A stretch of 64,000 nucleotides of DNA from contig JBAZCA010000005.1 in the NCBI GenBank assembly GCA_041671125.1, positions 21,864 to 85,863 of the forward strand, given 5' to 3'. Below, piece after piece: positions 2,208-57,650 of the stretch. A program made the position numbers and the translations under genes. This DNA is from Patescibacteria group bacterium. GTDB lineage: Bacteria > Patescibacteriota > Patescibacteriia > Patescibacteriales > JBAZCA01. The notes under the pieces were generated by a model. It searched no databases and was not told where the DNA came from. It worked only from the letters and a program-made list of their open reading frames with translations. Positions within the stretch are counted from its first letter, which is position 1; each line of letters opens with the position of its first letter.

Positions 2208-2283
2208 AGTCCCGAAGTCCAAGAGTCCGGAAGGCTTGATTGCTTGATGACTTCGGACTTTCTGACTTATAGACTTTAGACTA
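2208..2283. repeat. Spacer hairpin of the AGTC-word family
   Basis: agtcccgaagtcc...gacttcggact inverted pair. Same word style (agtcaaRagtc) as 38662-38727, 40325-40397 and 52856-52887. Confidence 0.7.
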
Positions 2284-3203: not shown

Positions 3204-3256
3204 GGATGGGACTTACGCGTTCGGCGCAAATGCCCGCTCTTGTTCCGCTAAGATCT

Positions 3257-3400
3257 GCCTCACCCCCAACCCCTCTCCATTAACTGATGTTAATAGAGAG
3301 GGGAGCCAGAGGAATAAATTTAATAAAAATTATCCTTATTATTCCAGCTCCCCTCTCCATACCGCAATACTGCGGGATGGAGAGGGGTCGGGGGTGAGGC
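3257..3400. repeat. Nested palindrome of the GCCTCACCCC..CCCCTCTCCAT family
   Basis: gcctcacccccaacccctctccat (3257-3280) pairs with atggagaggggtcgggggtgaggc (3377-3400). Inner pair is agagaggggagc / gctcccctctcc. Related copies at 31600-31653 and 19137-19160. Confidence 0.85.
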
Positions 3401-3416
3401 AAACCAGCATAAAACA

Positions 3417-4078: not shown

Positions 4079-4573
4079 TTAGTTAGTGATTTCCACTCCA
4101 CCGAAAATGGCGGCGCCTTTTAAATTAAGGGTTATGTTTCCGGCGCCCGAGGTATGGTTATCATAGCCGCCGAAGATGGCCGTGCCTTTGGAGTTAACTT
4201 TCCAGTTTTTTGGGATCATGATTTTTAAGCCGCCGAAGATGGCGGTCACTTCCATTTCAATATTCTCTCCGGCGGTTTTTACCTCTCTAAGATCAAGTTC
4301 GCCGCCGCCGAAGACAACAACGACTTTTCCGCCCTGAAAATTTTCCGAAGTAATAGTTTTTTCAATCGGGCTGAATATTATTGCCTCGTTTAAATAATCC
4401 TCGCCCGAAGTCCTTTTTTCACCGCTTAAGGCGATACCCCGCCTCCGGCCGGTGAGGATTCTTACGCCTATCGCGATAAGAATTACCGAAAAGGCGATCT
4501 TAAAGAAATTTTCTCCGAAAAAGGCGCTGAGCCCGATGATGATTAAAACTATCCCGGCAATTATTCTTCCCAT
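4079..4573 (-). CDS. LiaF-like cell-wall stress response protein (DUF2154-type C-terminal domain)
   Basis: Two N-terminal TM helices, then repeated beta motifs VVFGGGELDL, TAIFGGLKI, TAIFGGYD, AAIFGGVEI, typical of the LiaF C-terminal domain. Confidence 0.65.
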   Translation of the reverse strand: MGRIIAGIVLIIIGLSAFFGENFFKIAFSVILIAIGVRILTGRRRGIALSGEKRTSGEDYLNEAIIFSPIEKTITSENFQGGKVVVVFGGGELDLREVKTAGENIEMEVTAIFGGLKIMIPKNWKVNSKGTAIFGGYDNHTSGAGNITLNLKGAAIFGGVEITN

Positions 4574-9621: not shown

Positions 9622-10341
9622 TTATAAATTATTAGCTAATTCTTCGTAAGCAGTTATTATGAAAGGCATTTGAGGAACTATAGTCTCCATTTTAACATTT
9701 ACTAAGGGATTATGGGCGGCCGTATCTCCTAAAAATTTTATTCCTTTTAATTCGCTTGCAGTTTTCGGCAAAATAATGTGCCTATTATTTATTTTTTCTT
9801 TACTCGCAATATCAATCATTTTTTCCAAGCCAACAAGGAAACCAGGCTTACTAATATCTTCAATTTTAGCTTGTATTTCTTGTTTGGAAAAAACTAAAAG
9901 AATTAATTTTTCTAATATCTTTCTTAGCAGAAATGCGGTACAGGTACCGCTACAGCCAAAGCTATGTTCCAGATCTTCAAATTCAATTTTAAAATCTTTC
10001 TTTAATTTATCGGTTAACTCGGCTGAGAATAAAGAAGCATCAGATATTTTCTTCTTATTTTTTAACGGATTCTGCAAATATTTAACATGATTTATTCCTA
10101 CTTCAGTGATTTCGATTACTCCATTGTTGGATTTAACCCAATTTTCTTTTTGAGCATGATATAACTGGCTTGGATTATACAATCTCTTAAATTGTGTTTT
10201 AGGCCATTCCTTTTTTAATGCTCTAACTCCTGTATTATTTTCTATTTGTCCATCGGTTAAAAAATAAATTAAGGCAAGAATTTTTTCTTTCCCCGACATC
10301 TTACTTAATGGCAGACAGGATAAAAAATTAATTTTATTCAT
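9622..10341 (-). CDS. wHTH-like N-terminus plus DUF4145-like C-terminal domain protein
   Basis: N-terminus is alignable with the 10346-10735 product. C-terminus has LRKILEKLI...LKGIKFLGDTAAHNP, typical of DUF4145. Confidence 0.45.
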   Translation of the reverse strand: MNKINFLSCLPLSKMSGKEKILALIYFLTDGQIENNTGVRALKKEWPKTQFKRLYNPSQLYHAQKENWVKSNNGVIEITEVGINHVKYLQNPLKNKKKISDASLFSAELTDKLKKDFKIEFEDLEHSFGCSGTCTAFLLRKILEKLILLVFSKQEIQAKIEDISKPGFLVGLEKMIDIASKEKINNRHIILPKTASELKGIKFLGDTAAHNPLVNVKMETIVPQMPFIITAYEELANNL

Positions 10342-10345
10342 TTTT

Positions 10346-10735
10346 TTACTTTAAAATATTCTCCCATTCTTCTGTTAATTGGTACATGCCATATTCATGC
10401 GTATCAACCCAGCCCTTAGTCTTGGCCTCATTGGGATAGAAATCGTTATAATTTCCAAGTAGTTTTTTTGTTGACATTTTTGCCCAAAGACTCTTTATGT
10501 CCGTCATGGAAATATCTTTTTCAATATCGCCCTTTGCTAAAAAAGCAACCATTAAAACAAATTTCTTTGGTCCACTCTTATCGCTGGCATATCTTGATAT
10601 ATAAGCCCTTGGGTTTAGATCGAATTTAATTAATTCGTTGTCAGTATTAAAATGTTGCTGTTTTTTGGTGTTAAAAACTTTTTTTTCTAATTCTAATATT
10701 CTTTTTTCTAACTCATTTATTTTTTGATCAGACAT
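10346..10735 (-). CDS. Small coiled-coil plus wHTH-like protein (Mrr_N-like pattern)
   Basis: KFVLMVAFLAKGD...NEAKTKGWVDTHEYGMYQLTEE. Paralogous to the N-terminus of the next gene. Confidence 0.4.
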   Translation of the reverse strand: MSDQKINELEKRILELEKKVFNTKKQQHFNTDNELIKFDLNPRAYISRYASDKSGPKKFVLMVAFLAKGDIEKDISMTDIKSLWAKMSTKKLLGNYNDFYPNEAKTKGWVDTHEYGMYQLTEEWENILK

Positions 10736-10747
10736 AAATTTATAGTA

Positions 10748-11398
10748 TTATTTTTTAGAATAAACCCAAATTTTACCCATGCCGGCTTCGGTATCTATTT
10801 TTTTTCTTGATAAAATATCGTTTCTCACTAAAGGGAGAAGATAAGACGGCAAACTGGATAGCTTTAACGATGTAACTCCTTTCTCTATTAATTTTTTATA
10901 AATTTCGGTGCCATTCTTGCCAGTATTAAAAAATCCCTCTTCATTTAGTTTAAGTAAAAAATCTGTAACTGATGACTTTCTGGGCTTATTATTTTTTTTT
11001 ACACTTTTAGGGGAGTTACTTTCCGAATTAGGATTTTCAAAGTATGCCTGTAAACTAAAAATCCCTTGAGGAAGAATAAAATATTTTCCCTTTTGAGATT
11101 CAACTTTATACTCGTCTTTTAATGATTTAAGTATAGGTCTTAGTGTGTTTCCCTTAATACCTAAATTTTTTTCTAATTCAAATAGAGATACTAAAATTTC
11201 ATTTTTTTCGAGCAATTTCCATGCTTCTTTGCCGCATAAATATAATAAAATACGTTCTCTGTTGGGTAGCTTATTGCTCTGTTGGGTTAAAACCACTGAA
11301 TTTCCTTGCTTCACGAGATTTACGTTTCCCGTAAGCACTTTATCTAATAAATCCTCAGTAACCTCCGTGTTATTAATAATCAAATTTTTTAAAGCCAT
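10748..11398 (-). CDS. Protein with two wHTH-like modules, first gene of the operon
   Basis: NRERILLYLCGKEAWKLL..LEKNLGIKGNTLRPILKSL..KGKYFI, then a second module VTDFLLKLNEEGFF..GKIWVY. No catalytic motif seen. Confidence 0.4.
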   Translation of the reverse strand: MALKNLIINNTEVTEDLLDKVLTGNVNLVKQGNSVVLTQQSNKLPNRERILLYLCGKEAWKLLEKNEILVSLFELEKNLGIKGNTLRPILKSLKDEYKVESQKGKYFILPQGIFSLQAYFENPNSESNSPKSVKKNNKPRKSSVTDFLLKLNEEGFFNTGKNGTEIYKKLIEKGVTSLKLSSLPSYLLPLVRNDILSRKKIDTEAGMGKIWVYSKK

Positions 11399-19172: not shown

Positions 19173-20246
19173 ATGAATTATTATTTAATTATATTCATAG
19201 CGATATTTTTTCTTTCAATAGCCTGCGTTATACTGGTTAAATATCTGGCTGTTAAAACTGATATGGTTGACCGGCCGGTTTTAGGAAGAAAAATCCATAA
19301 AAACGCTATTCCCTTATTAGGCGGGATGGCGGTTTTTTTAGCTTTTTTTTCCGGGCTCTGGTTCGCGAAAGATAGACTGCTCTCCGGCAGTCTTGAACCT
19401 GGGCATTTTATCGGATTTTTTTTCGGCGCGCTCATATTAATGGTTGGCGGATTCCTTGACGATAAATATGACTTAAAACCGGGCCAGCAGATTATTTTTC
19501 CAGTACTCGCGGCGTTGGCGGTTATCGCCGGCGGGGTGGGAATTGAAAAAGTAACCAATCCCTTCGGCGGATTGCTCCTCCTTAACGCCTTAAAAATTCC
19601 GGTTTTTACTTTCGGAGGCATAACTTATTATTTTATTCTGATCTCCGATTTGTTCGTGTTTCTTTGGCTTATGGGCATGATGTACACGACGAAAATTCTT
19701 GACGGCCTTGACGGGCTCGTTGCCGGAGTGACGGCCATCGGCAGTTTTATCATTTTCCTTTTTACCATGACGACAAAGTATTACCAGCCGGACGTAGGGC
19801 TCGCCGCCCTAATCCTTTCAGCCGCCTGCCTTGGCTTCCTGGTTTTTAACTGGCATCCGGCGAAAATATTTTTGGGCGAGGGCGGGTCGCTGTTCTTAGG
19901 TTACGCGCTCGGGACGCTCGCCATAATTTCCGGCGGGAAAATCGCCATCGCCCTGCTAGTATTGGGCATCCCGATTATGGACGTCGCCTGGGCGATTATC
20001 AGGCGGACGCGGGCCGGAAAAAATCCTTTTAAATTCTCTGACCGGGAGCACCTTCACCACAGGCTATTAGACCTCGGTTTCGGACAGCGGAAGACGGTTT
20101 TAATTTACTATTTTCTCTCGGCCGCTTTCGGGCTCTCAGCGCTGTTTTTACAAAGCCGGGGGAAGATTTTAGCCCTTGGCGCGTTGGTTTTGATAATGAT
20201 ATCGCTAGTGGTTCTATTTAATTTTTTAGGAAAGAGGCATCTTTAA
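19173..20246 (+). CDS. Glycosyltransferase family 4 (MraY/WecA-like polyprenyl-phosphate sugar-1-P transferase)
   Basis: LDDKYDL, ILDGLDGLVAG and PAKIFLGEGGS motifs. About 10 TM helices. Confidence 0.8.
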   Translation: MNYYLIIFIAIFFLSIACVILVKYLAVKTDMVDRPVLGRKIHKNAIPLLGGMAVFLAFFSGLWFAKDRLLSGSLEPGHFIGFFFGALILMVGGFLDDKYDLKPGQQIIFPVLAALAVIAGGVGIEKVTNPFGGLLLLNALKIPVFTFGGITYYFILISDLFVFLWLMGMMYTTKILDGLDGLVAGVTAIGSFIIFLFTMTTKYYQPDVGLAALILSAACLGFLVFNWHPAKIFLGEGGSLFLGYALGTLAIISGGKIAIALLVLGIPIMDVAWAIIRRTRAGKNPFKFSDREHLHHRLLDLGFGQRKTVLIYYFLSAAFGLSALFLQSRGKILALGALVLIMISLVVLFNFLGKRHL

Positions 20247-20406
20247 TTATCAATTTACAATGATCAATTTTCAAATATAGGAGTAATCCCGAATATACAA
20301 ATCAAACCCAAATATACGAATATTGCGAAATTTAAAATTCGTATATTAATTTATATTCGTATATTCGGGAATACTCTCCAATTCATTGATCATTGTAAAT
20401 TGATAA
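20247..20406. repeat. 160-nt spacer hairpin
   Basis: ttatcaatttacaatgatcaat (20247-20268) pairs with attgatcattgtaaattgataa (20385-20406). Inner pair is cccgaatatac../..gtatattcggg. Confidence 0.85.
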
Positions 20407-20430
20407 TTGATAATTGATAATTGAATATTT

Positions 20431-27310: not shown

Positions 27311-27541
27311 TTAGCGGGATGTTTTTTTAGCGGGTTTTTTCTTCGCGGGTTTCGGCGCCGTTATTTTAGCGGCGTTTTTTTTAATGGTTTTTATGCAGTT
27401 GGCGCAGACTTTCTGGTTTTTTCCGTCAACTTTCCGGGCCTGCAAATTAATGTACTGCCTTTTTAAAGTCCGGATGTTGGAGTGGGATCGGCTGGCGTCC
27501 CGGGTCGTTCCGCGTCCGCAGATGTCGCATGTTCTTGCCAT
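27311..27541 (-). CDS. rpmB: 50S ribosomal protein L28
   Basis: MARTCDICGRGTTRDASRSHSNIRTLKRQYINLQ. Start moved to ATG 27541; the listed start (27613) lies in the leader palindrome. Lys-rich C-terminal tail. Confidence 0.85.
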   Translation of the reverse strand: MARTCDICGRGTTRDASRSHSNIRTLKRQYINLQARKVDGKNQKVCANCIKTIKKNAAKITAPKPAKKKPAKKTSR

Positions 27542-27551
27542 ATTTTGATTT

Positions 27552-27638
27552 GTCATTCTGAGTGAAGTGAAACGAAACGAAGAATCTCGCGGTATTATCA
27601 CGAGATCCTTCACTACGCTTCGCTTCGTTCAGGATGAC
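27552..27638. repeat. 87-nt imperfect palindrome (GTCATTCTGAG...TCAGGATGAC family) in the rpmB leader
   Basis: gtcattctgagtgaag..aacgaagaatctcgcgg...cttcgttcaggatgac. A related copy lies inside aspS (52889-52977). Confidence 0.8.
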
Positions 27639-33885: not shown

Positions 33886-33980
33886 TATTTATTAATCCCA
33901 TATCCCATATCTCATATCTCATATCCTGATTTTTAAGGTACACTGAGATTTGAGATGCGAGATATGAGTTATGAGAAATT

Positions 33981-35578: not shown

Positions 35579-35579
35579 T

Positions 35580-36266
35580 ATGTCAATTAAGATAAAAGTC
35601 TACAATCAGGAAGGGCTGGAAACTGGAGAAAAAGTTTTATCCGAGAAAATTTTCGCCGTGCCGGCTAATGAAGAATTGATCCGGCAGGTGGTTGTTTCCC
35701 TCATGGCCAATAAAAGGAAAGTCATAGCCCATACTAAGACCCGGTCTAACGTCAGAGGCGGAGGAAGAAAGCCCTGGAAACAAAAAGGAACTGGAAGAGC
35801 CCGCGCCGGAACTATCCGTTCGCCTTTATGGATCGGCGGCGGCGTTGTTTTTGGACCGCTTAAGGAAAGGAATTTTAAGATGAAGATTAATAAAAAGATG
35901 AACCAGAAAGCGATCTTCATGGCGATTTCCGACCGGGTAAAAAATGACAGCCTGGTTTTACTGGACAGCGTAAGCATTGATGAATATAAAACGAAAAAAT
36001 TTGAAGAGATAATAAATAAGATAACAGATAACAGAAAACAGATAACAGAAAACGCCGGCGAGGTTAAGAAAAAGAAAAGAAGTGTTTTAATGATCCTGGA
36101 AAAAAGCGACGGAAAAACAATCCGGTCGGGAAAAAATCTTTCCGGCGTGGAAATAATTAATCTGGACAATATTAATCTTTTAGATTTGTTGAAATACAGG
36201 GAACTCGTCCTTACGGTCGGAGCGGCGGAAAAGCTGGAAGAAAGATACAAAAAAATTAAAAATTAA
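35580..36266 (+). CDS. rplD: 50S ribosomal protein L4
   Basis: ATG 35580 (MSIKIKVYNQEG), RGGGRKPWKQKGTGRAR. Contains the in-frame word repeat gataacaga at 36020-36053. Confidence 0.92.
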   Translation: MSIKIKVYNQEGLETGEKVLSEKIFAVPANEELIRQVVVSLMANKRKVIAHTKTRSNVRGGGRKPWKQKGTGRARAGTIRSPLWIGGGVVFGPLKERNFKMKINKKMNQKAIFMAISDRVKNDSLVLLDSVSIDEYKTKKFEEIINKITDNRKQITENAGEVKKKKRSVLMILEKSDGKTIRSGKNLSGVEIINLDNINLLDLLKYRELVLTVGAAEKLEERYKKIKN

Positions 36267-38653: not shown

Positions 38654-38740
38654 AATAACCAAGTCAAAAAGTCAAAGAGTCCAGGAGTCAAAAAGTAAGT
38701 TGGCTTTGGACTAGGGACTTTGGACTATGAGACTAATAAC

Positions 38741-40053: not shown

Positions 40054-40326
40054 ATGAATAACGATAAAACGAAAAAAGAAAAAAAATCCAGAAAATTCAG
40101 CGGAGTGGTCGTATCCGACAAAATGGATAAAACCATTGTCGTCAGAATTGACCGGACCCGCGTTCATCCGCGCTATAAGAAAAGATACGTCGTATCCGAA
40201 AAGTATAAAGTTCATGACGAGAAAAACCAGTTTAAAGAAGATGACCGGGTTGAATTCGTTGAGTGCCGGCCGCTGTCAAAGGACAAGCGGTGGAAAGTGG
40301 TTTATAATAGTCAAGAAGTCAAATAG
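40054..40326 (+). CDS. rpsQ: 30S ribosomal protein S17
   Basis: [22 protein letters not shown]. Confidence 0.93.
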
Positions 40327-40403
40327 TCAAAGAGTCTGATAGTCAAGAAGTCCAAAGTCAGATTAAGAGCGACTTTTTGACTCCGGACTATCGGACTAAA
40401 TTT

Positions 40404-46222: not shown

Positions 46223-46394
46223 AATGTAAAATGTAAATATCAAAATGCAAAATGACAAAGATAAAAATTTAAAATGAATGAATAATAAATAAAGAATCAT
46301 GAATTATGCTTACTGCTGATTTTAAAATTCCATTATTCATTATTCGTAATTCATGATTCAAATTTTTTCATTTTGATTTTTAATTTTTACATTG
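46223..46394. repeat. About 170-nt AT-rich nested palindrome
   Basis: aatgtaaaatgtaaatatcaaaatg.. pairs with ..cattttgatttttaatttttacatt. Inner pair is gaatcatgaattatg / cgtaattcatgattc. Confidence 0.7.
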
Positions 46395-48029: not shown

Positions 48030-48032
48030 TTA

Positions 48033-48108
48033 ACACATAACACATAACACATAACACATAACACATAACACATAACACATAACACATAACACATAACACA
48101 TAACACAT
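48033..48108. repeat. Tandem heptamer (ACACATA) x about 10.9
   Basis: Perfect head-to-tail copies counted by hand from 48033 to 48108. Confidence 0.95.
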
Positions 48109-48185: not shown

Positions 48186-48836
48186 ATGAAAAAAATATTT
48201 TACATCATGTTCGGTCCGCCGGGCTCGGGAAAGGGGACGCAGGCGGAAATTTTAGGGAAAAGAATGGGCCTGCCGACGATCTCCACCGGCGTTCTTTTGC
48301 GCAAAGAAATCGGTGATAAGACTGAACTGGGACAAAAGGTGGAATCAATTATTGCCGGAGGAAATCTGGTTTCGGATGAAATCGTCGCAAAAATGATTAT
48401 TAGCAGGCTAAAAGAGTCTGACGCCGCAAAAGGTGCAATTTTTGACGGTTATCCGCGAACCATGAACCAAAATAAATTCCTTTTGGATGTTTTAAAAGAA
48501 ATTCCCGGCGACAATATTATCCCGATACTCGTTGATGTGTCGGATGAGGAAGTCGCGAGGCGTTTAGGCGGAAGAAGAAGTTGTTCTTGCGGGGCGACTT
48601 ATCACATGATTTACAATCCGCCGAAGAATGACGAGACCTGCGACGTCTGCGGCGCGAAAATAGTTATCCGTCCGGATGACGAACCTGGAGTGATAAAAGA
48701 AAGACTCAAGGTTTACCATCTAAACGTTGATCTGGTGATTAATTATTGGAGAAGTAACGGCAGGCTGATAGTAATCGACGGCGAACCGCCGATCAAGGAA
48801 GTGGCCAAGGAGATAGAAAAAAAATTGAAATTTTAA
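48186..48836 (+). CDS. adk: Adenylate kinase (zinc-lid type)
   Basis: ATG 48186 (MKKIFYIMFGPPGSGKGTQ). Lid CSCG..CDVCG. Confidence 0.93.
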   Translation: MKKIFYIMFGPPGSGKGTQAEILGKRMGLPTISTGVLLRKEIGDKTELGQKVESIIAGGNLVSDEIVAKMIISRLKESDAAKGAIFDGYPRTMNQNKFLLDVLKEIPGDNIIPILVDVSDEEVARRLGGRRSCSCGATYHMIYNPPKNDETCDVCGAKIVIRPDDEPGVIKERLKVYHLNVDLVINYWRSNGRLIVIDGEPPIKEVAKEIEKKLKF

Positions 48837-50431: not shown

Positions 50432-51148
50432 ATGAACGAAACTTACAACCTAAAAGCCATAATTTTAAAGCGCGAACCTTTTCGGGAGCATGACGCGAGA
50501 ATTACCCTATACAGCCGGGAAAGAGGAAAACTAAGCCTCATCGCCCGGGGGACGAAAAAAACCCGCTCAAAAATGGCCGGGCATCTTGAACCGATAACGC
50601 TCGCCAACATCATGGCCGTCCGGGGAAAGGCTTTTGATTATGTCGGCGGAGCCGCGAGTGAGAAATGTTTTCAAGGCGTAAAAGGCGATTTGGAGAAAAC
50701 CGGAGTTGCCGGTGAAGCGATAAGAAAATTTTCCAGCCTGATAAAAGAGGAAGAAAAAGACGAAAATATTTTCGGCTTATTTTTGGATTTCATAAATATT
50801 TTGGAAGAAGAAAAAAATAAGGATTTTAAATTGATATCCGGTTATTTTATGTTTAAGTTTCTTTGCTTATCGGGTTATCGCCCGGAATTGAAAATTTGCG
50901 TTGATTGCGGAAGAAAAATTGAACCGGGCGGAAATTTTTTCGCCCTAAGAAAGGGAGGTTTGGTCTGTAAAACGCATAATTGCCGGCCGGATTTACATAA
51001 CCATAAAGTTTCGGATGACAGTATTAAGATGTTAAGGTGGGTGAGTGAAAGTGATTTAAGTAACGCGTTAAAAGTTAAAACTGATTTGAAAATAGATGGT
51101 GAGGTTAATAACCTCATTTGTTCTTTTACGAATATGATAAATTCATGA
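50432..51148 (+). CDS. recO: DNA repair protein RecO
   Basis: ATG 50432 (MNETYNLKAIILKREPFREHDARITLYSRERGKL). Zinc motif CVDCG..C. Confidence 0.85.
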   Translation: MNETYNLKAIILKREPFREHDARITLYSRERGKLSLIARGTKKTRSKMAGHLEPITLANIMAVRGKAFDYVGGAASEKCFQGVKGDLEKTGVAGEAIRKFSSLIKEEEKDENIFGLFLDFINILEEEKNKDFKLISGYFMFKFLCLSGYRPELKICVDCGRKIEPGGNFFALRKGGLVCKTHNCRPDLHNHKVSDDSIKMLRWVSESDLSNALKVKTDLKIDGEVNNLICSFTNMINS

Positions 51149-51159
51149 GGAGGCGGGAT

Positions 51160-51354
51160 ATGGAGAGAGTGTTTGTTGCTGAAAATAAGGAGCAGGGTTT
51201 TTTCGCGCTCCTTAGAATAATTTTTGAACTGCCAACCGGTAGTTCAAAAGAGGCCGGTCCTGACCAGTCATCGGATGTCAGAAATCTTGACAGCCGAAGC
51301 CAGAACAAAACCAGTCGGCGCTGGAAGATCTCCAGAGTTGACGAACCATGGTAG
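51160..51354 (+). CDS. Small ORF of doubtful coding status (could be a 3' UTR or an RNA)
   Basis: GAGGAGG lies 6 nt before ATG 51160. The 64-aa product has no recognisable features. Followed by a strong terminator. Confidence 0.25.
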   Translation: MERVFVAENKEQGFFALLRIIFELPTGSSKEAGPDQSSDVRNLDSRSQNKTSRRWKISRVDEPW

Positions 51355-51385
51355 GCCGGACACGGAATCCCGGCCTTTTATTTGA
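51354..51385 (+). terminator. Rho-independent terminator
   Basis: ggccgg acacggaatc ccggcc followed by ttttatttg. Confidence 0.7.
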
Positions 51386-51574
51386 TTTTTTAGCGATAAT
51401 AAGCTAAGATTAGTGTGTAGCAGAATTAAATTCATCAGGCTGGTTTTGCATTAAACTGTTATATAAGCCTTGTACAGCGCGGATATTCCGCGGATTAAAA
51501 CGCTGAATTATCGCTGATAAATAGTTGTTCTAAAAATAAGTTAAACTGAGTGGCTAAATTTGTTTAATATTCAA

Positions 51575-51753
51575 TGAGACGGTTGCAAAACTCCTTTTGT
51601 TCCGAGTTGTCCTTTTCGCCCGATACTTGCGTCAAGCTGGCTCGAAATGATTTTCAGCGTAGCCCTGCTACGCCTCAAATCATTTCGCTTGTTTTCCTCG
51701 TCTCGGACAAAAAGTCTCAACTCTCGCTTAAAAGTAGTTTTGTAACCGTCTCA
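51575..51753. repeat. 179-nt palindrome immediately upstream of aspS (TGAGACGGTT.CAAAA family)
   Basis: tgagacggttgcaaaactcc.. pairs with ..agttttgtaaccgtctca, and the centre cgaaatgattt pairs with aaatcatttcg. A short relative lies at 5029-5064. Confidence 0.85.
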
Positions 51754-51759
51754 ATACAT

Positions 51760-53670
51760 ATGCTTAGAACCCATACCAACGGAGAACTGAATAAGTCTAA
51801 CGCCGGAGAAAGCGTGGCGCTTTGCGGCTGGGTGCACCGCCGGCGCGACCATGGCGGAATAATTTTTATTGACCTCCGCGACCGTTACGGCCTGACGCAG
51901 ATTAAATTTGATCCGGATATAAATGAAGCGGCCTGGAAAAAAGCGGACAGCCTCCGGAGCGAGTGGGTGATAAAAGCGTCCGGCAAAGTGCTTTCGCGAC
52001 CCGAAGACATGGTTAATAAAAAATTAAAGACCGGGGAGATTGAAGTGGGGGTTTTAAACCTTGAAATCATGAGCGAATCAAAAACTCCACCCTTTGAAAT
52101 TGACGAGGAAAAAGCCGACGCGTCTAACGAAGCTTTAAGGCTAAAATACCGCTTCATAGATTTAAGGCGCGAAGCGCTACAAAAACTTTTAGCGAAAAAA
52201 GACAAGTTTTTTCAGTTTACCCGAAAATATTTTCACGCGCTCGGGTTTATTGAAGTCCAGACCCCGATTCTCGCGAACTCTTCGCCTGAAGGCGCGCGGG
52301 ATTTTTTAATTCCGTCGCGGCTTTATCCGGGGAAGTTTTACGCCCTGCCGCAGGCGCCCCAGCAGTTTAAACAGCTTTTGATGGTTTCCGGGTTTGACCG
52401 TTATTTCCAGATCGCCCCCTGCTTCCGAGACGAAGACCCGCGCATGGATCGCCATTACGGAGAGTTTTACCAGCTGGACATGGAAATGAGTTTTGCAGAG
52501 CAGGAAGATATTTTTAAAATCATGGAGCCCTGGGCTCTTGAGATAACGAAAAAATTCAGCCGGAAAAAAGTTGTCGGCCTAGAAGCGGACGGTCGGCTGA
52601 AAAAAATTCCCTGGCGCGAAGCCCTGACAAAATACGGGATTGATAAACCGGATTTGCGCTATGATTTAGAAATTAAGCCAGTTACTGAGCTGGTAAAAGG
52701 TTGTGGTTTTACCGTGTTCGCCGGCGCGGTTGAATCGGGCGGCGTGGTTCATGCCCTGAAAGTTGATGGCGGAGCCAAATTCACCCGTTCGCAGATTGAT
52801 GAACTGACCGAGGTAGCGCGAGGAAAGGGCGCTAAAGGATTGGCATATATTGTTGTAAAGTCAAAAGTCAAAAGTCCCAAGTCAGAAGCCATTCTAAGTG
52901 GAGCAAAACTGAACGAAGAATCTCGCGGCAATAACAATGAGACACAGGATTCTTCGGCCTTGCGGACTCAGGATGACGGTGATAAATATGAACTGCAGTC
53001 TCCGATCATAAAATTCTTAGGCGACGAGCTGGCCGGGAAAATCGTGGAAGTCGTGGAGGCCAAGGCGGGCGATATAGTTTTCTTCGGCGCTGATAAGTGG
53101 CGGACGGTTTGCGACGCTTTGGGCGCGGTTCGGATCGCCTGTGCGGAAAAATTGAAATTAAAAGACAAGAAAAAAGCCGCCTGGTGCTGGATTGTTGATT
53201 TTCCCATGTATGACTATTCGGAAATTGAAGCCGGAAAAATTGATTTCGGCCATAACCCGTTTTCCATGCCCCAGGGCGGGATGGAGGCGCTAAATTCGAA
53301 AGAGCCTTTGGAAATCCTCGCCCATCAATATGATCTTATTCTAAACGGTTTTGAAGTTTCATCCGGGGCGATAAGGAACCATGAACCGGAAATCATGTAT
53401 AAAGCTTTTGAAATCGCCGGTTATACCAGGGAACAGGTGGACGCGAAATTCGGCGCTATGCTCCGGGCCTTTTCCTACGGCGCGCCTCCGCACGGCGGCA
53501 ACGCTCCGGGCGTAGACCGGATTTTCATGGCCTTAAACGATCTTGATTCCATCCGCGATATTTACGCTTTCCCTAAAGATGGTAAAGGCAAGGATTTGCT
53601 CATGGATTCTCCGAGCGAGGTGGATGAAAAGCAGCTGCGCGATTTGCATGTTAGGGTGAAACTGGATTGA
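51760..53670 (+). CDS. aspS: Aspartyl-tRNA synthetase (bacterial type, with repeat-derived insert)
   Basis: ATG 51760 (MLRTHTNGELN..GWVHRRRDHGGIIFIDLRD). Class II motifs FRDED and GGNAPGVDR. The listed start (51574) lies in the palindrome. Confidence 0.93.
   Translation: MLRTHTNGELNKSNAGESVALCGWVHRRRDHGGIIFIDLRDRYGLTQIKFDPDINEAAWKKADSLRSEWVIKASGKVLSRPEDMVNKKLKTGEIEVGVLNLEIMSESKTPPFEIDEEKADASNEALRLKYRFIDLRREALQKLLAKKDKFFQFTRKYFHALGFIEVQTPILANSSPEGARDFLIPSRLYPGKFYALPQAPQQFKQLLMVSGFDRYFQIAPCFRDEDPRMDRHYGEFYQLDMEMSFAEQEDIFKIMEPWALEITKKFSRKKVVGLEADGRLKKIPWREALTKYGIDKPDLRYDLEIKPVTELVKGCGFTVFAGAVESGGVVHALKVDGGAKFTRSQIDELTEVARGKGAKGLAYIVVKSKVKSPKSEAILSGAKLNEESRGNNNETQDSSALRTQDDGDKYELQSPIIKFLGDELAGKIVEVVEAKAGDIVFFGADKWRTVCDALGAVRIACAEKLKLKDKKKAAWCWIVDFPMYDYSEIEAGKIDFGHNPFSMPQGGMEALNSKEPLEILAHQYDLILNGFEVSSGAIRNHEPEIMYKAFEIAGYTREQVDAKFGAMLRAFSYGAPPHGGNAPGVDRIFMALNDLDSIRDIYAFPKDGKGKDLLMDSPSEVDEKQLRDLHVRVKLD
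52856..52977. repeat. Composite repeat insertion translated inside aspS
   Basis: aaagtcaaaagtcaaaagtcccaagtcagaag (AGTC-word family), then ccattctaagtggag..aacgaagaatctcgcgg..actcaggatgac (family of 27552-27638). Confidence 0.7.
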
Positions 53671-53716
53671 GATGTATCAGCGAAGCGAAAGAAGTATTTT
53701 TGTGAAAATATTAATT

Positions 53717-54292
53717 ATGAAAAATAATCTAGAACAACTCGCTTACGAATGGATAACCGCCGAGGCCGATAAGACTGATATTGAGAGCGCGTTTTATTGC
53801 CGGACAAGGGATATTTTTGAGGCAAGATCCGGAAGGATGTTTAATGAGCTCGTGAAAAACGAAAAATTTGGAAGTAATTCTTATGTCATAATGGCTGCCG
53901 TCGGCGAGATTGGCAACAATTCTTTTGACCACAACATTGGCAGTTGGTCGGATGTTCCGGGAACATTTTTCGGCTATGAATTTGAAAAGGGCGAGCTTTT
54001 AATAGTAATGGCCGACCGGGGGCAGGGAATTTTAAAAACGTTAAAAAAAGTAAAGCCGGAATTAAAGAATGACGCGGAAGCGCTAAAAACGGCTTTTACC
54101 GAAAAGATTTCCGGTCGGGCGCCGGAGAATAGAGGAAATGGCCTTAAATTCGTCAAAAAGAATGTGGAAGAGGAGAAAATGCATTTAACTTTTTTGTCCG
54201 GCAATGCCCAAGCGGAGCTGAATGAAAGAATGGTGATAACCGAAAAAGATAAAAATCTGCGAGGCTGTTTAGTAATATTAAAAGTAAAATAA
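53717..54292 (+). CDS. GHKL (HATPase_c-like) ATPase / RsbW-SpoIIAB-like serine kinase
   Basis: N-box GEIGNNSFDHN, G1 ADRGQGI, G2 ENRGNGLKFV. Start taken at ATG 53717. Confidence 0.6.
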   Translation: MKNNLEQLAYEWITAEADKTDIESAFYCRTRDIFEARSGRMFNELVKNEKFGSNSYVIMAAVGEIGNNSFDHNIGSWSDVPGTFFGYEFEKGELLIVMADRGQGILKTLKKVKPELKNDAEALKTAFTEKISGRAPENRGNGLKFVKKNVEEEKMHLTFLSGNAQAELNERMVITEKDKNLRGCLVILKVK

Positions 54293-54296
54293 TACT

Positions 54297-54578
54297 ATGA
54301 TTATAGAGCTTAAAAAATTTGGCGACATACTGGTTTCCAGACCGGCCGGCCGGGAAGCGTATTTGGCCATGTCGGCCTACCTTACCCGGGATGTTGATAA
54401 AAACGAGGAAATCATAATTGATTTTTCCGGGGTGAAAGTGCTCGCGCCGTCCTGGGCTGACGAGGTGATTACTAAGGTCGCCGAAGAATTCAAAAATGTT
54501 GAGCTGATTAACGCGGAAAATCAAAGCGTCCAAGCCACCCTAAAAACCTTAAGGGAATATTCGGATTTGAAGATATAA
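54297..54578 (+). CDS. STAS-like DUF4325 protein
   Basis: 93 aa, GDILVSRPAGREAY..IIIDFSGVKVLAPSWADEVI, typical of DUF4325. Confidence 0.6.
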   Translation: MIIELKKFGDILVSRPAGREAYLAMSAYLTRDVDKNEEIIIDFSGVKVLAPSWADEVITKVAEEFKNVELINAENQSVQATLKTLREYSDLKI

Positions 54579-54596
54579 AAAATAATTAATCAACCT

Positions 54597-55046
54597 ATGA
54601 CCTTAAAAGAACAGCTTAAAGCCGACCTGGTGGCGGCCATGAGAGCTAAAGACGCGGAAAAACTTTCGGTTTTAAGGATGCTTGCTACGGCCATAAAAAC
54701 AAAGGAGATCGCGCTCCGGAAGGGCGAAGATATAATATTAAGCGATGAGCAGGTGTTAGACGTAATCGCCTCGGAAGTGAAAAAAAGAAAGGATTCAATC
54801 GTTGCTTACGAGCAGGGCGGGCGAAGCGAACTGGCGGAAGCTGAAAAAAAAGAAATAAAAATCCTTGAGGTCTACTTGCCGGAGCAAATGGCTGACGAAG
54901 AATTGGAGCGGATCGTAAAAAGCGCCGCGGCTGAAGCCGGAGCGGGCGCTAATTTCGGCGCGGTGATGGGAAAGGTGATGGGAAAAGTTAAAGGTCAGGC
55001 CGACGGTAACCGGGTGAGCGCCATGGTGAAAAAAGCGATGGGCTAA
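54597..55046 (+). CDS. GatB/YqeY domain protein
   Basis: MTLKEQLKADLVAAMRAKDAEKLSVLRML..EVKKRKDSI. Confidence 0.85.
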   Translation: MTLKEQLKADLVAAMRAKDAEKLSVLRMLATAIKTKEIALRKGEDIILSDEQVLDVIASEVKKRKDSIVAYEQGGRSELAEAEKKEIKILEVYLPEQMADEELERIVKSAAAEAGAGANFGAVMGKVMGKVKGQADGNRVSAMVKKAMG

Positions 55047-56836: not shown

Positions 56837-57607
56837 ATGCTGTCCGTAAAAATAGATAAATTTGAAGGGCCGCTCCACCTCCTTTTAAAGCTCATTGAGA
56901 AAGAGGAACTGGACATAACCGAAATCAGCCTGGCAAAAATCGCCGACGAGTATATTGAGCTGGTGGAAAGCTCGCCGGCTATCGGCCCGGGCGAGATGGC
57001 CGATTTTTTAGTGCTCGCCGCCCGGCTTCTGTATATAAAATCAAAAGCCTTGTTTCCGCATATTGACCTTCCGGAAGAGGAAGGCGGCGATGACCTGGAA
57101 AAACAGCTCCGGATGTACCGGGAATATCTCCTCGCGGCGGAAAAGATTGAAAAAATCCTCAAAGGGAAAAAATTCATGTTCCAGCGCGAATGGAACCGCA
57201 AGGCGATTGTTTTGTCCATCTATCCGCCTCGGCGCGCCGGAGGCGAGACGGGTCATTTCTCACCCCCGAAGAATATTTTTCCCCCCTCCCTCCGGGAAGT
57301 GATGAAAGAAATAATTGAGCGGATAAAACCGGCGCCAAAGGATCTTGAAGAGAAGAGCCTTGAGGCGGCTATCCATATTGAAGATCGGATCGCGCTGATT
57401 CGGGAAATGCTTCTGAATAAAATTAAATTTAATTTTAGAAAAATCCTGGAAAAAGCCGGATCCAAAACCGAGGTGATCATTTCATTCCTCGCCATGTTGG
57501 AGTTGGCGAAACAGCGGGATATCATCATTGATCAGGATGAGTTGTTTGGAGAGATAGAAATTACAAGATTTGAAGTTGGCTTAAAACAGATAACAGATAA
57601 CAGATAA
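56837..57607 (+). CDS. scpA: Segregation and condensation protein A
   Basis: FEGPLHLLLKLIEKEELDITEISLAKIADEY. GC-rich insert at 57222-57295. The last 7 codons lie in the terminator palindrome arm. Confidence 0.88.
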   Translation: MLSVKIDKFEGPLHLLLKLIEKEELDITEISLAKIADEYIELVESSPAIGPGEMADFLVLAARLLYIKSKALFPHIDLPEEEGGDDLEKQLRMYREYLLAAEKIEKILKGKKFMFQREWNRKAIVLSIYPPRRAGGETGHFSPPKNIFPPSLREVMKEIIERIKPAPKDLEEKSLEAAIHIEDRIALIREMLLNKIKFNFRKILEKAGSKTEVIISFLAMLELAKQRDIIIDQDELFGEIEITRFEVGLKQITDNR

Positions 57608-57650
57608 CAGAACTTTTTCCACTGGTCTGCTATCTGCTATCTGTTATCTG
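57585..57650. repeat. GATAACAGA-word hairpin at the scpA/scpB junction
   Basis: aaacagataacagataacagataacag pairs with ctgctatctgctatctgttatctg. The same word occurs inside rplD (36020-36053). Confidence 0.8.

What the first reader, a model, noticed from the sequence alone, without database searches (positions are those of the whole stretch)
52856..52977. Two intergenic-type repeat families fused and translated inside aspS
AspRS reads GAKGLAYIVVK [SKVKSPKSEAILSGAKLNEESRGNNNETQDSSALRTQDDG] DKYELQSPIIKFL. The corresponding E. coli loop (GAKGLAYIKV...SPVAKFL) is only about a dozen residues, from memory.

The DNA of the insert has two parts. The first is an AGTC-word run (aaagtcaaaagtcaaaagtcccaagtcagaag), like the spacers at 2208, 38662 and 40325. 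The second is a copy of the palindromic element found in the rpmB leader: compare ccattctaagtggag..aacgaagaatctcgcgg..actcaggatgac with gtcattctgagtgaag..aacgaagaatctcgcgg..gttcaggatgac. An essential gene has therefore absorbed spacer repeats in frame.
Basis: partly seen in the sequence, partly recalled or inferred. Interest (0 to 1): 0.55.

Follow-up and report, generated by a model that had tools for sequence, protein, structure and literature searches.

The report
Selfish repeats translated inside aspartyl-tRNA synthetase
An essential enzyme gene (aspartyl-tRNA synthetase) of an uncultured Patescibacteria bacterium carries, in frame in one surface loop, a short tandem repeat plus a full copy of a palindromic repeat that is otherwise intergenic, and relatives carry other repeats in this same loop.

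Summary
aspS (51760-53670, +) carries about 40 extra codons between GLAYIVVK and ELQSPIIKF. They consist of an (AAAGTCA)4.6 array (52857-52888), a 90-nt copy of a palindromic repeat (52888-52977, exactly 30 codons) and a 12-nt tail.

A profile built only from copies in other phyla matches the aspS copy end to end (E 4.7e-8). It also matches the copy upstream of rpmB (27552-27638). Relatives with 81-86% identical AspRS have an empty site.

The AlphaFold model puts the insert in a disordered loop between two strands of a confidently folded GAD domain.

New here: this loop is an insertion hotspot. Of 120 relatives, 21 carry at least 4 extra residues there and 1 at any other internal site. The inserts are of at least 8 unrelated kinds. 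One (L128) is two tandem copies of a repeat that is 90-97% identical to intergenic copies on the same contig.

Two close comparisons show locally raised divergence, including synonymous divergence, around the insert. This suggests the inserts also move between aspS alleles by recombination.

The palindromic repeat belongs to an apparently undescribed family found in many phyla. Each arm is its own hairpin, and the layout resembles REP/REPIN elements.

Closest precedent: Rickettsia palindromic elements. No expression or protein data exist.

The parts
51760..53670 (+). aspS coding sequence (636 aa from the ATG at 51760; the mechanical ORF starts upstream at 51574)
   Evidence: 100% identical to P0001, aspartate--tRNA ligase. 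Pfam tRNA_anti-codon, GAD and tRNA-synt_2. RecO-aspS-...-YqeY synteny is shared with relatives.
52843..52866 (+). Beta-strand (residues 362-369, LAYIVVKS) on the N-terminal side of the insert, inside the GAD domain
   Evidence: AlphaFold2 model me56412764085, DSSP strand 362-369. Ten-residue block means of pLDDT over residues 241-360 are 80-95 and drop to 83 for 361-370.
52857..52888 (+). Period-7 tandem array (AAAGTCA)4.6, read as KSKVKSPKSE
   Evidence: TRF. AGTC-word triplets occur at only 4 places in the window, chance 0.00. A perfect (AAAGTCA)4 sits at the same site in L125, with a variant in L126. The KVKSQKS-type peptide recurs in P0025, P0030, P0051, P0070 and P0110 and in L140.
52888..52977 (+). 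Full-length but decayed copy of the GTCATTCTGAG...CTCAGAATGAC palindromic repeat. It is 90 nt = 30 codons on codon boundaries, read as AILSGAKLNEESRGNNNETQDSSALRTQDD
   Evidence: nhmmer with a profile from 41 copies of other phyla: model 3-85/85, E 4.7e-8. 47 nt at 81% identity to the rpmB-leader copy. The hairpin is lost: fold z -1.06 and ungapped identity to its own reverse complement 0.38 vs 0.74.
52978..52989 (+). 12-nt tail GGTGATAAATAT (GDKY) between the element and the conserved ELQSP
   Evidence: Codon alignment with the empty allele in L004. Its origin is unknown. An aromatic residue before ELQSP is common in insert-bearing alleles.
52870..52983 (+). Residues 371-408 of AspRS: the predicted disordered loop made by the insert
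   Evidence: pLDDT below 50 and no secondary structure, between strands 362-369 and 410-413. GRAVY of the 43-residue insert peptide is -1.47.
27552..27638 (+). Intact intergenic copy of the same palindromic repeat, 11 nt upstream of the rpmB start (rpmB is on the minus strand, 27541..27311)
   Evidence: nhmmer E 1.1e-11 over the full model. It folds as a near-perfect hairpin, -42.9 kcal/mol, z -6.2. It is 87 nt and stop-free in the frame used in aspS.
2208..2282 (.). Intergenic AGTC/GACT-word hairpin spacer
   Evidence: AGTC words on the + strand followed by AGTC words on the - strand.
38662..38734 (.). AGTC/GACT-word hairpin spacer upstream of rpsC (probably rplV-rpsC)
   Evidence: The downstream gene was read from the sequence as S3 ([13 protein letters not shown]). 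The upstream gene was not identified with a tool and is assumed to be rplV.
40309..40397 (.). AGTC/GACT-word hairpin spacer between rpsQ and rplN
   Evidence: Flanking genes were read from the sequence: S17 C-terminus ([14 protein letters not shown]) and L14 start ([12 protein letters not shown]).

Best explanation
The insert is repeat DNA tolerated as a passenger. Two kinds of short repeat that normally sit between genes in this genome came to lie at the tip of a beta-hairpin in the GAD (insertion) domain of AspRS: a period-7 AAAGTCA array and a 90-nt doublet of a hairpin-forming repeat.

It survives in an essential gene for three reasons. The added length is a multiple of three (42 codons replace 2). 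The repeats have no stop codon in the frame and orientation used. The site is a solvent-exposed turn that can carry a long disordered hydrophilic loop without disturbing the fold. The insert is most likely transcribed, translated and kept in the mature enzyme, with no function of its own.

Since arriving, the element copy has lost its hairpin symmetry and its peptide has become more hydrophilic.

How it got there is inferred, not shown. Either the repeat entered aspS directly in this lineage, or, as two comparisons of close relatives suggest, an aspS segment already carrying the insert was imported by homologous recombination.

Shown: the anatomy, family membership of the element, absence from close relatives, recurrence at this site, and the predicted disorder. 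Inferred: translation and retention, neutrality, and the route of arrival.
For: Anatomy and frame.

Family membership: one search gives E 4.7e-8 over the full length with a profile that contains no sequence from this lineage. Searches support it.

Intergenic sister copies: window 27552-27638 and L003 8403-8485.

Empty or different site in close relatives.

Pre-adaptation: the intact rpmB copy is 87 nt and stop-free in the same frame. A canonical copy is open in 2 of 3 frames on each strand. AAAGTCA repeats are stop-free in all three frames on this strand, whereas the reverse strand (TGACTTT) contains TGA.

Structure: the GAD domain has block-mean pLDDT 80-95. Residues 371-408 are below 50 and form coil between strands 362-369 and 410-413.

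Decay and adaptation of the peptide: fold z -1.06 vs -6.2, and GRAVY -1.30 vs -0.41.

Same process elsewhere: the L128 aspS insert is two tandem copies of a 41-nt hairpin repeat, 90-97% identical to three intergenic copies on the same contig. Among 120 relatives there are 21 inserts at this loop and 1 at any other internal site. The nearest neighbours of filled alleles are often empty, at 95-98% core identity. L129 and L130 differ by a clean 42-nt insertion. Copies of the same family lie inside other real ORFs, for example the L062 epimerase.

Recombination: L129 vs L130 show 0 mismatches in the flanks and a mosaic tract that ends at the insert. Window vs L001 show 13-25 mismatches per 60 nt only around the insert. 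Synonymous codon differences are 0.35 and 0.31 in the flanks against 0.09 over codons 1-335.

Not a one-off assembly: an identical protein is recorded under two NCBI accessions and on an ENA contig of different length.

Precedent: Rickettsia palindromic elements, PMC10969869.
Against: There is no transcript, peptide or enzymatic evidence. Retention in the mature protein is inferred only from the open frame.

Only one genome carries this particular insert. The assemblies that share it may rest on the same reads, and the exact junction was not found in the JGI metagenome collection.

The window holds only two copies of the palindromic family, so recent mobility in this genome is not shown. No target-site duplication and no autonomous partner were found.

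The AGTC run could have arisen locally from the VKSK codons rather than from a spacer. Stepwise expansion of a 7-nt unit would pass through frameshifts, so neither route is clean.

Structural tolerance alone does not obviously explain a 21:1 concentration at one loop. A targeting or selective component is not excluded.

The overall model confidence is moderate (mean pLDDT 71.7).
Confidence: 0.78

Rival explanations
1. Adaptive hypervariable loop. The GAD hairpin tip is under diversifying or positive selection in Patescibacteria, for example through contacts with GatCAB or tRNA, or to escape a factor that targets AspRS. Repeats are recruited there because variation itself is useful.
For: The concentration at one site is extreme: 21 vs 1. 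At least 8 unrelated insert sequences occur, with rapid turnover between relatives 94-98% identical. Divergence around the insert is locally raised and resembles cassette exchange.
Against: About 80% of relatives have the short 6-7 residue loop. The inserts share no motif or structure and are predicted disordered. L4 shows the same behaviour in a linker, which points to a genome-wide mutational process filtered by tolerance. No selection test was possible.
Confidence: 0.12
2. Assembly artefact: a chimeric join or a collapsed repeat placed intergenic repeat sequence inside aspS.
For: Only one organism carries this insert. Repeats are classic sites of misassembly. The junction was not found in a second collection.
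Against: aspS continues in the same frame on both sides. The element occupies exactly 30 codons with no stop. The copy is diverged from the other copy in the window (81% over 47 nt), not a duplicate of it. The identical protein is recorded on contigs of 150,906 and 198,314 bp from different records. Inserts at the same site occur in many independent assemblies; P0099 is on 7 contigs and P0030 on 4.
Confidence: 0.03
3. Intervening sequence removed after transcription or translation (intron, intein-like element or translational bypass), so the mature enzyme lacks the insert.
For: From my own knowledge, not checked here: CPR bacteria are reported to carry insertions in rRNA genes. The intact repeat forms a strong hairpin.
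Against: The insert is 40 residues, far below intein size, and lacks the Cys/Ser/Thr ... His-Asn splice residues. No Rfam family, including introns, matches 52700-53150. The hairpin in the aspS copy is degraded. An open, in-frame, hydrophilic reading is what one expects if the insert is translated.
Confidence: 0.03
4. Local origin without any mobile repeat. Slippage and template switching at the VKSK codons generated the array and a hairpin, and the resemblance to the palindromic family is convergent.
For: The native codons GTA AAG TCA AAA already contain one AAAGTCA unit. Period-7 arrays with different words are common in this genome's spacers, which suggests a local array-generating process.
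Against: All four conserved boxes of the family are present in the right order and spacing, and the profile match is full length at E 4.7e-8. Convergence on 90 nt is not credible. This rival could still hold for the heptamer half alone.
Confidence: 0.04

Closest known systems
Rickettsia palindromic elements (RPEs; Ogata et al. 2000 Science 290:347, as summarised in PMC10969869)
   Same: Both are short palindromic repeats found between genes and also in frame inside unrelated, often essential, protein genes. They add a peptide segment at positions compatible with the fold. The repeats carry open frames. Copies decay after insertion.
   Different: The element family and phylum differ; sequence similarity to RPE families was not compared here. 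RPEs are about 150 bp; this element is 90 nt and is a doublet of two 35-45 nt hairpin units. Here one loop of one protein has been hit repeatedly by several unrelated repeat families in different lineages. The insert is also a composite with a period-7 tandem array. No expression data exist for this case.
REP sequences and REPIN doublets of proteobacteria (Bertels and Rainey 2011; from my own knowledge, not read here)
   Same: The unit is an imperfect hairpin with conserved ends. It occurs as singlets and as inverted doublets that form a long hairpin. It is multi-copy and mostly intergenic. No target-site duplication is seen. Covariation shows each arm is its own hairpin.
   Different: REPs are usually specific to a species or genus and tied to a RAYT transposase. 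This family keeps near-identical boxes across many phyla, and no associated transposase was identified. Classic REPs are extragenic by definition.
[quoted passage not shown]
   Same: Small size, terminal inverted repeats, and occasional in-frame intragenic copies.
   Different: No target-site duplication was seen. No parent insertion sequence with the same ends was found in 120 loci.
Lineage-specific insertions in aminoacyl-tRNA synthetases in general
   Same: Extra peptide in a surface loop of a synthetase domain that lies outside the catalytic core.
   Different: Those are usually conserved across a clade and have no DNA-level match to repeats. This insert is absent from relatives 81-86% identical and can be traced to a repeat family.

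Membership tests
GTCATTCTGAG...CTCAGAATGAC palindromic repeat family (unnamed; defined here from 41-68 copies in other phyla) | Left terminal box GTCATTCTGAG | tested here: met
   The aspS copy reads GcCATTCTaAG, 9 of 11. The rpmB copy matches 11 of 11.
GTCATTCTGAG...CTCAGAATGAC palindromic repeat family (unnamed; defined here from 41-68 copies in other phyla) | Internal box CGAAGAATCTCG, 8-30 nt after the left box | tested here: met
   Exact 12 of 12 at 52914-52925, 15 nt after the left box.
GTCATTCTGAG...CTCAGAATGAC palindromic repeat family (unnamed; defined here from 41-68 copies in other phyla) | Inverted internal box (C)GAGATTCTTCG and right terminal box CTCAGAATGAC | tested here: met
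   caGGATTCTTCG (10 of 12) and CTCAGgATGAC (10 of 11), read. The GGAT variant of the right box is the second commonest in the family.
GTCATTCTGAG...CTCAGAATGAC palindromic repeat family (unnamed; defined here from 41-68 copies in other phyla) | Significant full-length match to a family profile built without this lineage | tested here: met
   nhmmer model positions 3-85 of 85, 29.7 bits, E 4.7e-8 in about 170 kb searched on both strands.
GTCATTCTGAG...CTCAGAATGAC palindromic repeat family (unnamed; defined here from 41-68 copies in other phyla) | Hairpin potential: complementary arms, and complementary core dinucleotides within each arm | tested here: not met
   The aspS copy folds no better than shuffles (z -1.06; arm folds z +0.1 and +0.8). 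In the right arm TT faces GA, giving one G.T instead of a Watson-Crick pair (one search shows the family rule). I read this as decay of a true copy.
In-frame palindromic-element insertion of the RPE kind | The same repeat is also present in intergenic DNA of the genome | tested here: met
   Window 27552-27638, upstream of rpmB, and L003 8403-8485 in a close relative.
In-frame palindromic-element insertion of the RPE kind | The insertion keeps the host reading frame open and the host protein otherwise intact | tested here: met
   42 codons replace 2 and there is no stop. All AspRS Pfam domains are present. Core identity to P0002 and P0003 is 94-95%.
In-frame palindromic-element insertion of the RPE kind | The insertion sits at a surface position compatible with the fold | tested here: met
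   By prediction only: a disordered loop at a beta-hairpin tip of the GAD domain. The PDB homologues align on both sides of it.
In-frame palindromic-element insertion of the RPE kind | The insert is transcribed, translated and retained in the protein | not testable with these tools
   No transcriptome or proteome data are available.
In-frame palindromic-element insertion of the RPE kind | Sequence homology to one of the RPE families of Rickettsia | not tested
   No RPE sequences were at hand. So this is 'works like an RPE', not 'is an RPE'.
MITE | Terminal inverted repeats | tested here: met
   TGTCATTCTGAG / CTCAGAATGACA.
MITE | Target-site duplication flanking the element | tested here: not met
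   No repeated flank in 51 copies. Only T at -1 and A at +1, which extend the palindrome. None at aspS.
MITE | A parent insertion sequence with the same ends | tested here: inconclusive
   None in 120 loci of at most 8 kb. The four distant end pairs enclose ordinary genes. This was not a genome-wide search.
AGTC-word hairpin spacers of this genome | Three or more AGTC words spaced 7-9 nt | tested here: met
   52859-52883 is one of only four such places in the window; chance 0.00.
AGTC-word hairpin spacers of this genome | An inverted arm of GACT words within about 60 nt, forming a hairpin | tested here: not met
   No minus-strand AGTC triplet lies near aspS. There is only a single GGACT at 52965-52969.
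Intein or intron | Intein size and splice residues, or a match to a known intron RNA family | tested here: not met
   The insert is 40 residues and has no Cys/Ser/Thr ... His-Asn boundary residues. No Rfam match in 52700-53150 at E up to 1.

The most novel reading that the evidence does not exclude
The tip of one beta-hairpin in the AspRS GAD domain is a hypervariable cassette in Patescibacteria. Unrelated selfish repeats are captured there again and again and are then exchanged between co-occurring lineages by recombination.

One of the donors is an undescribed repeat family that resembles REP/REPIN elements and spans many phyla. Its unit is an AUUCU/AGAAU stem, a GA/GA internal loop and a variable inner stem. 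Because it has stop-free frames, it could be a general source of new protein loops well beyond Rickettsia.
Probability: 0.25. Interest if true: 0.75.

Novelty: new variant of a known kind. Interest (0 to 1): 0.56.

Why it matters
It extends a phenomenon known mainly from Rickettsia, selfish palindromic DNA written into essential proteins, to the Candidate Phyla Radiation. These genomes are tiny and assumed to be streamlined.

It shows that one permissive loop can be reused by many repeat families, which gives a natural experiment on how new protein segments arise from non-coding repeats.

Practically, such inserts inflate and fragment protein families, shift alignments and can mislead gene callers. 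The repeat upstream of rpmB creates a spurious 100-aa ORF.

The repeat family itself, conserved across phyla with clear covariation in each arm and absent from Rfam and from the literature searched, deserves its own study.

Tried and rejected
- **Literature search by sequence words.** GTCATTCTGAG and CGAAGAATCTC gave only unrelated primer hits.
- **Literature search by topic.** Searches on Patescibacteria plus MITE, on CPR plus in-frame palindromic insertion, and on GAD-domain insertions gave nothing relevant.
- **Rfam.** Nothing at the rpmB leader, the aspS insert or eight loci holding canonical copies. There were only sub-threshold matches typical of hairpins, plus one unrelated tRNA on L010.
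- **Pfam and NCBIfam on translations of the repeat.** Nothing.
- **Exact junction in JGI metagenomes.** No match.
- **Close relatives in that collection.** The best is only 70% identical, so the history of this particular insert could not be traced. Five apparently over-long matches were just a neighbouring paralogous synthetase gene.
- **The look-up of encoding contigs with the 636-aa protein.** Not on record, because the gene is called with the upstream start there as the 698-aa P0241.
- **Target-site duplication and a parent IS.** None found.
- **Plasmid and phage collections.** Two Planktothrix plasmid hits without annotation; no phage hits.
- **Repeat origin of the inserts in L001, L003, L126, L127 and L129.** No second copy on their own contigs and no match to the palindromic profile, so their origin is unresolved.
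- **Microhomology between the heptamer (..GTCA) and the element end (GTCA..) as the cause of the fusion.** Considered, but it rests on 4 nt only and was dropped.
- **Protein-level search for the repeat peptide.** Not run. Variable inner-stem lengths shift the frame between boxes, so no stable peptide signature exists.
Full report
**1. What is in the sequence**

The + strand ORF 51574-53670 encodes aspartyl-tRNA synthetase. From the ATG at 51760 it is 636 aa. It is identical to P0001, which NCBI names 'MAG: aspartate--tRNA ligase [Patescibacteria group bacterium]'.

The 120 best relatives are mostly 593-598 aa. Of these, 95 have only 6-7 residues between GLAYI and LQSP. The E. coli enzyme (1eqr) has about 12, and HMMER breaks its alignment at query residues 373-411.

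A codon alignment with the empty allele of P0004 (L004) shows where the insert sits. P0004 is 81% identical by BLASTP and 86% over aligned columns. In the window, 42 codons replace two:

- Window: GTT GTA AAG TCA [42 codons] GAA CTG CAG
- L004: GTT GTG CGC TCG GAA ACT GAA CTC CAG

**2. Anatomy of the insert**

(a) 52857-52888 is a period-7 tandem array, (AAAGTCA)4.6.

(b) 52888-52977 is a 90-nt copy of a palindromic repeat. It starts and ends on codon boundaries, so it is exactly 30 codons.

(c) 52978-52989 is a 12-nt tail (GDKY) of unknown origin.

The repeat in (b) shares 47 nt at 81% identity with 27554-27600. It also shares an exact 17-mer that occurs only at these two places in the window, and a matching right end.

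The other copy, 27552-27638, lies 11 nt upstream of the rpmB start on the minus strand. It folds as a near-perfect hairpin (-42.9 kcal/mol, z -6.2). The region containing the aspS copy folds no better than shuffled sequence (z -1.06).

**3. Is the aspS segment really a member of a repeat family?**

The hits came from Chloroflexota, Deltaproteobacteria, Acidobacteriota, Planctomycetota, Clostridia, Omnitrophota, Bacteroidota, Chlamydiota, Nitrospirota and others, often with several copies per genome.

From 41 full-length copies in those loci I built a profile HMM. None of these copies comes from this lineage. The profile gives three hits:

- Window 27552-27638, E 1.1e-11
- An intergenic copy in the close relative L003 (8403-8481), E 8.5e-12
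- The aspS segment 52890-52977, over model positions 3-85 of 85, E 4.7e-8

All four conserved boxes are present in the aspS copy, in the right order. Membership is therefore secure. What the aspS copy has lost is the hairpin. Its ungapped identity to its own reverse complement is 0.38, against 0.74 for the rpmB copy.

**4. The AGTC half**

Three AGTC words spaced 7-9 nt occur at exactly four places in 64 kb, where 0.00 is expected by chance. Three are intergenic spacers:

- 2208-2282
- 38662-38734, upstream of rpsC (probably rplV-rpsC)
- 40309-40397, between rpsQ and rplN

The fourth is aspS 52859-52883.

In the spacers an AGTC arm is followed by an inverted GACT arm, so they are hairpins. In aspS only the forward arm exists, the period is 7 rather than 8, and the best shared stretches are 10-15 nt. 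It is therefore the same kind of array, but not a demonstrable copy of a spacer.

The same array occupies the same site in other lineages:

- L125 has a perfect (AAAGTCA)4. The same contig also holds an AAAGTC-word hairpin spacer between S8 and L6.
- L126 has a variant.
- The KVKSQKS-type peptide recurs in P0025, P0051 and P0110, and in L140.

Three units are 21 nt and read KVKSQKS. The repeat is stop-free in all frames on this strand, whereas the reverse strand contains TGA. That fits the single orientation seen.

**5. Structure**

AlphaFold2 with 65 aligned relatives gives a confidently folded GAD domain. Ten-residue block means of pLDDT are 80-95 over residues 241-360 and 82-93 over 411-480. 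Residues 371-408 are below 50 and have no secondary structure. They lie between strand 362-369 (LAYIVVKS) and strand 410-413 (YELQ). The insert is thus a long disordered loop at a beta-hairpin tip.

It is strongly hydrophilic, with GRAVY -1.47. The peptide from the aspS element copy scores -1.30, against -0.41 for the same frame of the intact rpmB copy. The central I-I-T-R-S-F-T-T-L-R-F-V has become N-N-N-E-T-Q-D-S-S-A-L-R-T. The substitutions that destroyed the hairpin also made the loop more soluble. I read this as adaptation after insertion, which is an inference.

**6. The loop is a hotspot**

In an alignment of the 120 relatives, 21 carry at least 4 extra residues at this loop. One carries extra residues at another internal position. 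All other length differences are at the termini.

The inserts fall into at least eight unrelated kinds, including:

- KSKVKSQKS
- VLREG(A/V)xPSLGPD
- (P/T)SPSKGEGN(F/Y)E
- GSGQASPSYAEATADKQ
- The inserts of P0002, P0045 and P0110, and of L131

Insert-bearing alleles sit next to empty ones. P0067 has neighbours at 98% core identity with no insert, and P0027 at 95%. P0001, P0002 and P0003 are 94-95% identical to each other and carry three different inserts.

In an independent collection, 5 of 26 further Patescibacteria-type alleles also have inserts here.

The clearest parallel is L128 (P0099). Its insert is two tandem copies of a 41-nt hairpin repeat, AACCTCACCCC..CCCTCTCC-loop-GGAGAGGGGGCAATTA. 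It is 90-97% identical to three intergenic copies within 4 kb on the same contig. The window itself holds that repeat family at 3256-3401.

**7. How inserts move**

L129 (filled) and L130 (empty) have no mismatches in the kilobases flanking aspS. Between them lies a mosaic of up to 10 mismatches per 60 nt, running from just upstream of aspS to the insertion site and ending there. At the site itself there is a clean 42-nt difference.

The window and L001 differ by 0-5 nt per 60 over most of the first 1,000 nt of the gene, but by 13-25 per 60 in 52780-53080. The fraction of codons with a synonymous difference is 0.35 and 0.31 in the roughly 30 codons on each side, against 0.09 over codons 1-335. 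It is 0.23 in the C-terminal part, so the gene is mosaic in more than one place.

Insert classes also travel with characteristic flanking residues. VLREG, for example, accompanies the PSLGPD class.

This pattern is what one expects if segments carrying an insert are exchanged between aspS alleles by homologous recombination. It is not proof. It lowers the number of independent insertions needed but not below the number of unrelated insert kinds. The ENA sample that holds the window-type contig also holds the P0003-type contig, so donors and recipients co-occur.

**8. Is it an artefact?**

aspS continues in frame on both sides. The copy is diverged from the only other copy in the window. The identical protein is recorded under two NCBI accessions on a contig of 150,906 bp, and as the 698-aa call P0241 on an ENA contig of 198,314 bp. 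Locus L211, the 4,097-nt stretch around P0241 on that ENA contig, is identical to window 50574-54670. These assemblies may share reads, so read mapping remains the decisive check.

**9. Nature of the palindromic family (side result)**

Each arm is a hairpin of its own:

- An outer 5-bp stem, AUUCU/AGAAU
- A symmetric GA/GA internal loop
- A variable G+C-rich inner stem

Unit folds have z -3.2 to -3.7 in three of the five canonical copies folded, -2.3 in a fourth, and about 0 in the fifth.

In 64 of 68 distinct doublets, the core dinucleotide of the inner box of the variable arm is the exact reverse complement of that of its outer box. Five Watson-Crick variants occur: TT/AA 34, TC/GA 17, CC/GG 6, TG/CA 5 and CT/AG 2. 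The other arm is held at TT/AA by the search pattern. The partner of each box therefore lies in its own arm.

Singlets and inverted doublets both occur. There is no target-site duplication. No parent IS was found in 120 loci. There is no match in Rfam, Pfam or NCBIfam, and none in the literature searched. The layout is that of REP singlets and REPIN doublets, but conserved across phyla, which is unusual.

A canonical copy is open in two of three frames on each strand. Copies inside other real ORFs were seen:

- An Omnitrophota epimerase (L062; Pfam Epimerase E 1.3e-23)
- A long Planctomycetota ORF (L083; open for more than 1,300 residues; sub-threshold TPR matches only)
- An Omnitrophota ORF open for more than 1,700 residues (L033)

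**10. Comparison with what is known**

The closest precedent is the Rickettsia palindromic elements. These are repeats found in frame in many unrelated genes at positions compatible with the fold (PMC10969869). This case works the same way but is not a member of those families, as far as tested.

What differs:

- The phylum
- The element, a REP/REPIN-like doublet
- The fusion with a period-7 array
- The repeated use of one loop by several repeat families, with signs of recombinational exchange

Ribosomal protein L4 in the same window also translates a period-7 array, (AGATAAC)5 at 36019-36053, read as ITDNRKQITEN. Its relatives have a hypervariable linker at that position, and 36 of 120 carry at least 4 extra residues there. 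The process therefore appears to be genome-wide and filtered by structural tolerance.

**11. Verdict**

It is a real in-frame capture of repeat DNA by an essential gene, of a known general kind, with new features that make it moderately interesting. Translation of the insert and its lack of function remain inferred.

Noticed in passing
window 36019-36053 (inside rplD, about 35579-36266, +): Ribosomal protein L4 contains an in-frame period-7 array, (AGATAAC)5, read as ITDNRKQITEN. The Pfam L4 match spans 203 residues for 188 profile positions. Relatives have a hypervariable K/E-rich linker here: 36 of 120 carry at least 4 extra residues, and some peptides look repeat-derived, such as RQGSGGQAADGG.
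   Followed up: partly
window 2208-2282, 38662-38734, 40309-40397: Intergenic hairpins whose left arm is a tandem array of AGTC words and whose right arm is the inverted GACT array. Two of them sit inside the ribosomal-protein operon (upstream of rpsC, probably rplV-rpsC; and rpsQ-rplN), where genes are normally tightly packed.
   Followed up: partly
window 20245-20424, 33895-33976, 46277-46360, 57585-57650, 48031-48108 and about 20 further sites: Many intergenic period-7 tandem arrays, each with its own word (AATTGAT, ATAACAG, AATGAAT, TAACACA x11 and others). They are often paired with an inverted array nearby, so they would form hairpins. Nearly all lie outside long ORFs. Their origin and function are unknown.
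   Followed up: partly
loci L005-L124 (other phyla); window 27552-27638: The GTCATTCTGAG...CTCAGAATGAC repeat is spread across many phyla. Each arm is a hairpin with an AUUCU/AGAAU stem, a GA/GA internal loop and a variable inner stem. The core dinucleotides of the two boxes of an arm are exact complements in 64 of 68 copies, with five variants. It has no match in Rfam, Pfam or the literature searched.
   Followed up: partly
window 27311-27613 (minus strand): The repeat upstream of rpmB is stop-free and in frame with rpmB. The mechanical ORF therefore starts at a GTG inside the repeat and gives a 100-aa product (MKDLVIIPRDSSFRFTSLRMTNQN+MARTCD...) rather than the shorter L28 that starts at MARTCD. 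A gene caller could report an extended L28.
   Followed up: no
window 3256-3401; L128 4082-4177, 6109-6143, 6608-6647, 7672-7708: A second hairpin repeat family (CCTCACCCC..CCCTCTCC / GGAGAGGG..) is present in the window as nested inverted repeats. In another lineage it is the donor of the aspS insert of P0099, and probably of the SPSKGEGN-type inserts of P0027, P0065, P0007 and L136.
   Followed up: partly
L129 vs L130, about 9900-11220: Two otherwise identical genomes (0 mismatches in the flanking kilobases) differ by a mosaic tract covering the 5' two-thirds of aspS and ending at the insert. This is a likely recombination import.
   Followed up: partly
L062 (Omnitrophota epimerase ORF): The same epimerase carries two different repeat-derived peptides in frame: DSRFRGNDKSGGNDESGGNDE, and GVRDSSACGLRMTKN from the family studied here. 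In-frame capture of repeats is therefore not confined to Patescibacteria.
   Followed up: partly
window 4096-4251: Three direct repeats of 24 nt, spaced 69 and 63 nt apart (multiples of three), with a weaker (71% identical) fourth copy at 48616-48639. They probably mark a repeated protein segment. Not examined (family D11).
   Followed up: no
L127 9713-11104; L134, L135, L141, L146, L152: In several relatives a second class II synthetase gene (anticodon-binding plus tRNA-synt_2 domains, no GAD domain; about 20-25% identical to AspRS) follows aspS directly. The window lacks it at that position.
   Followed up: no
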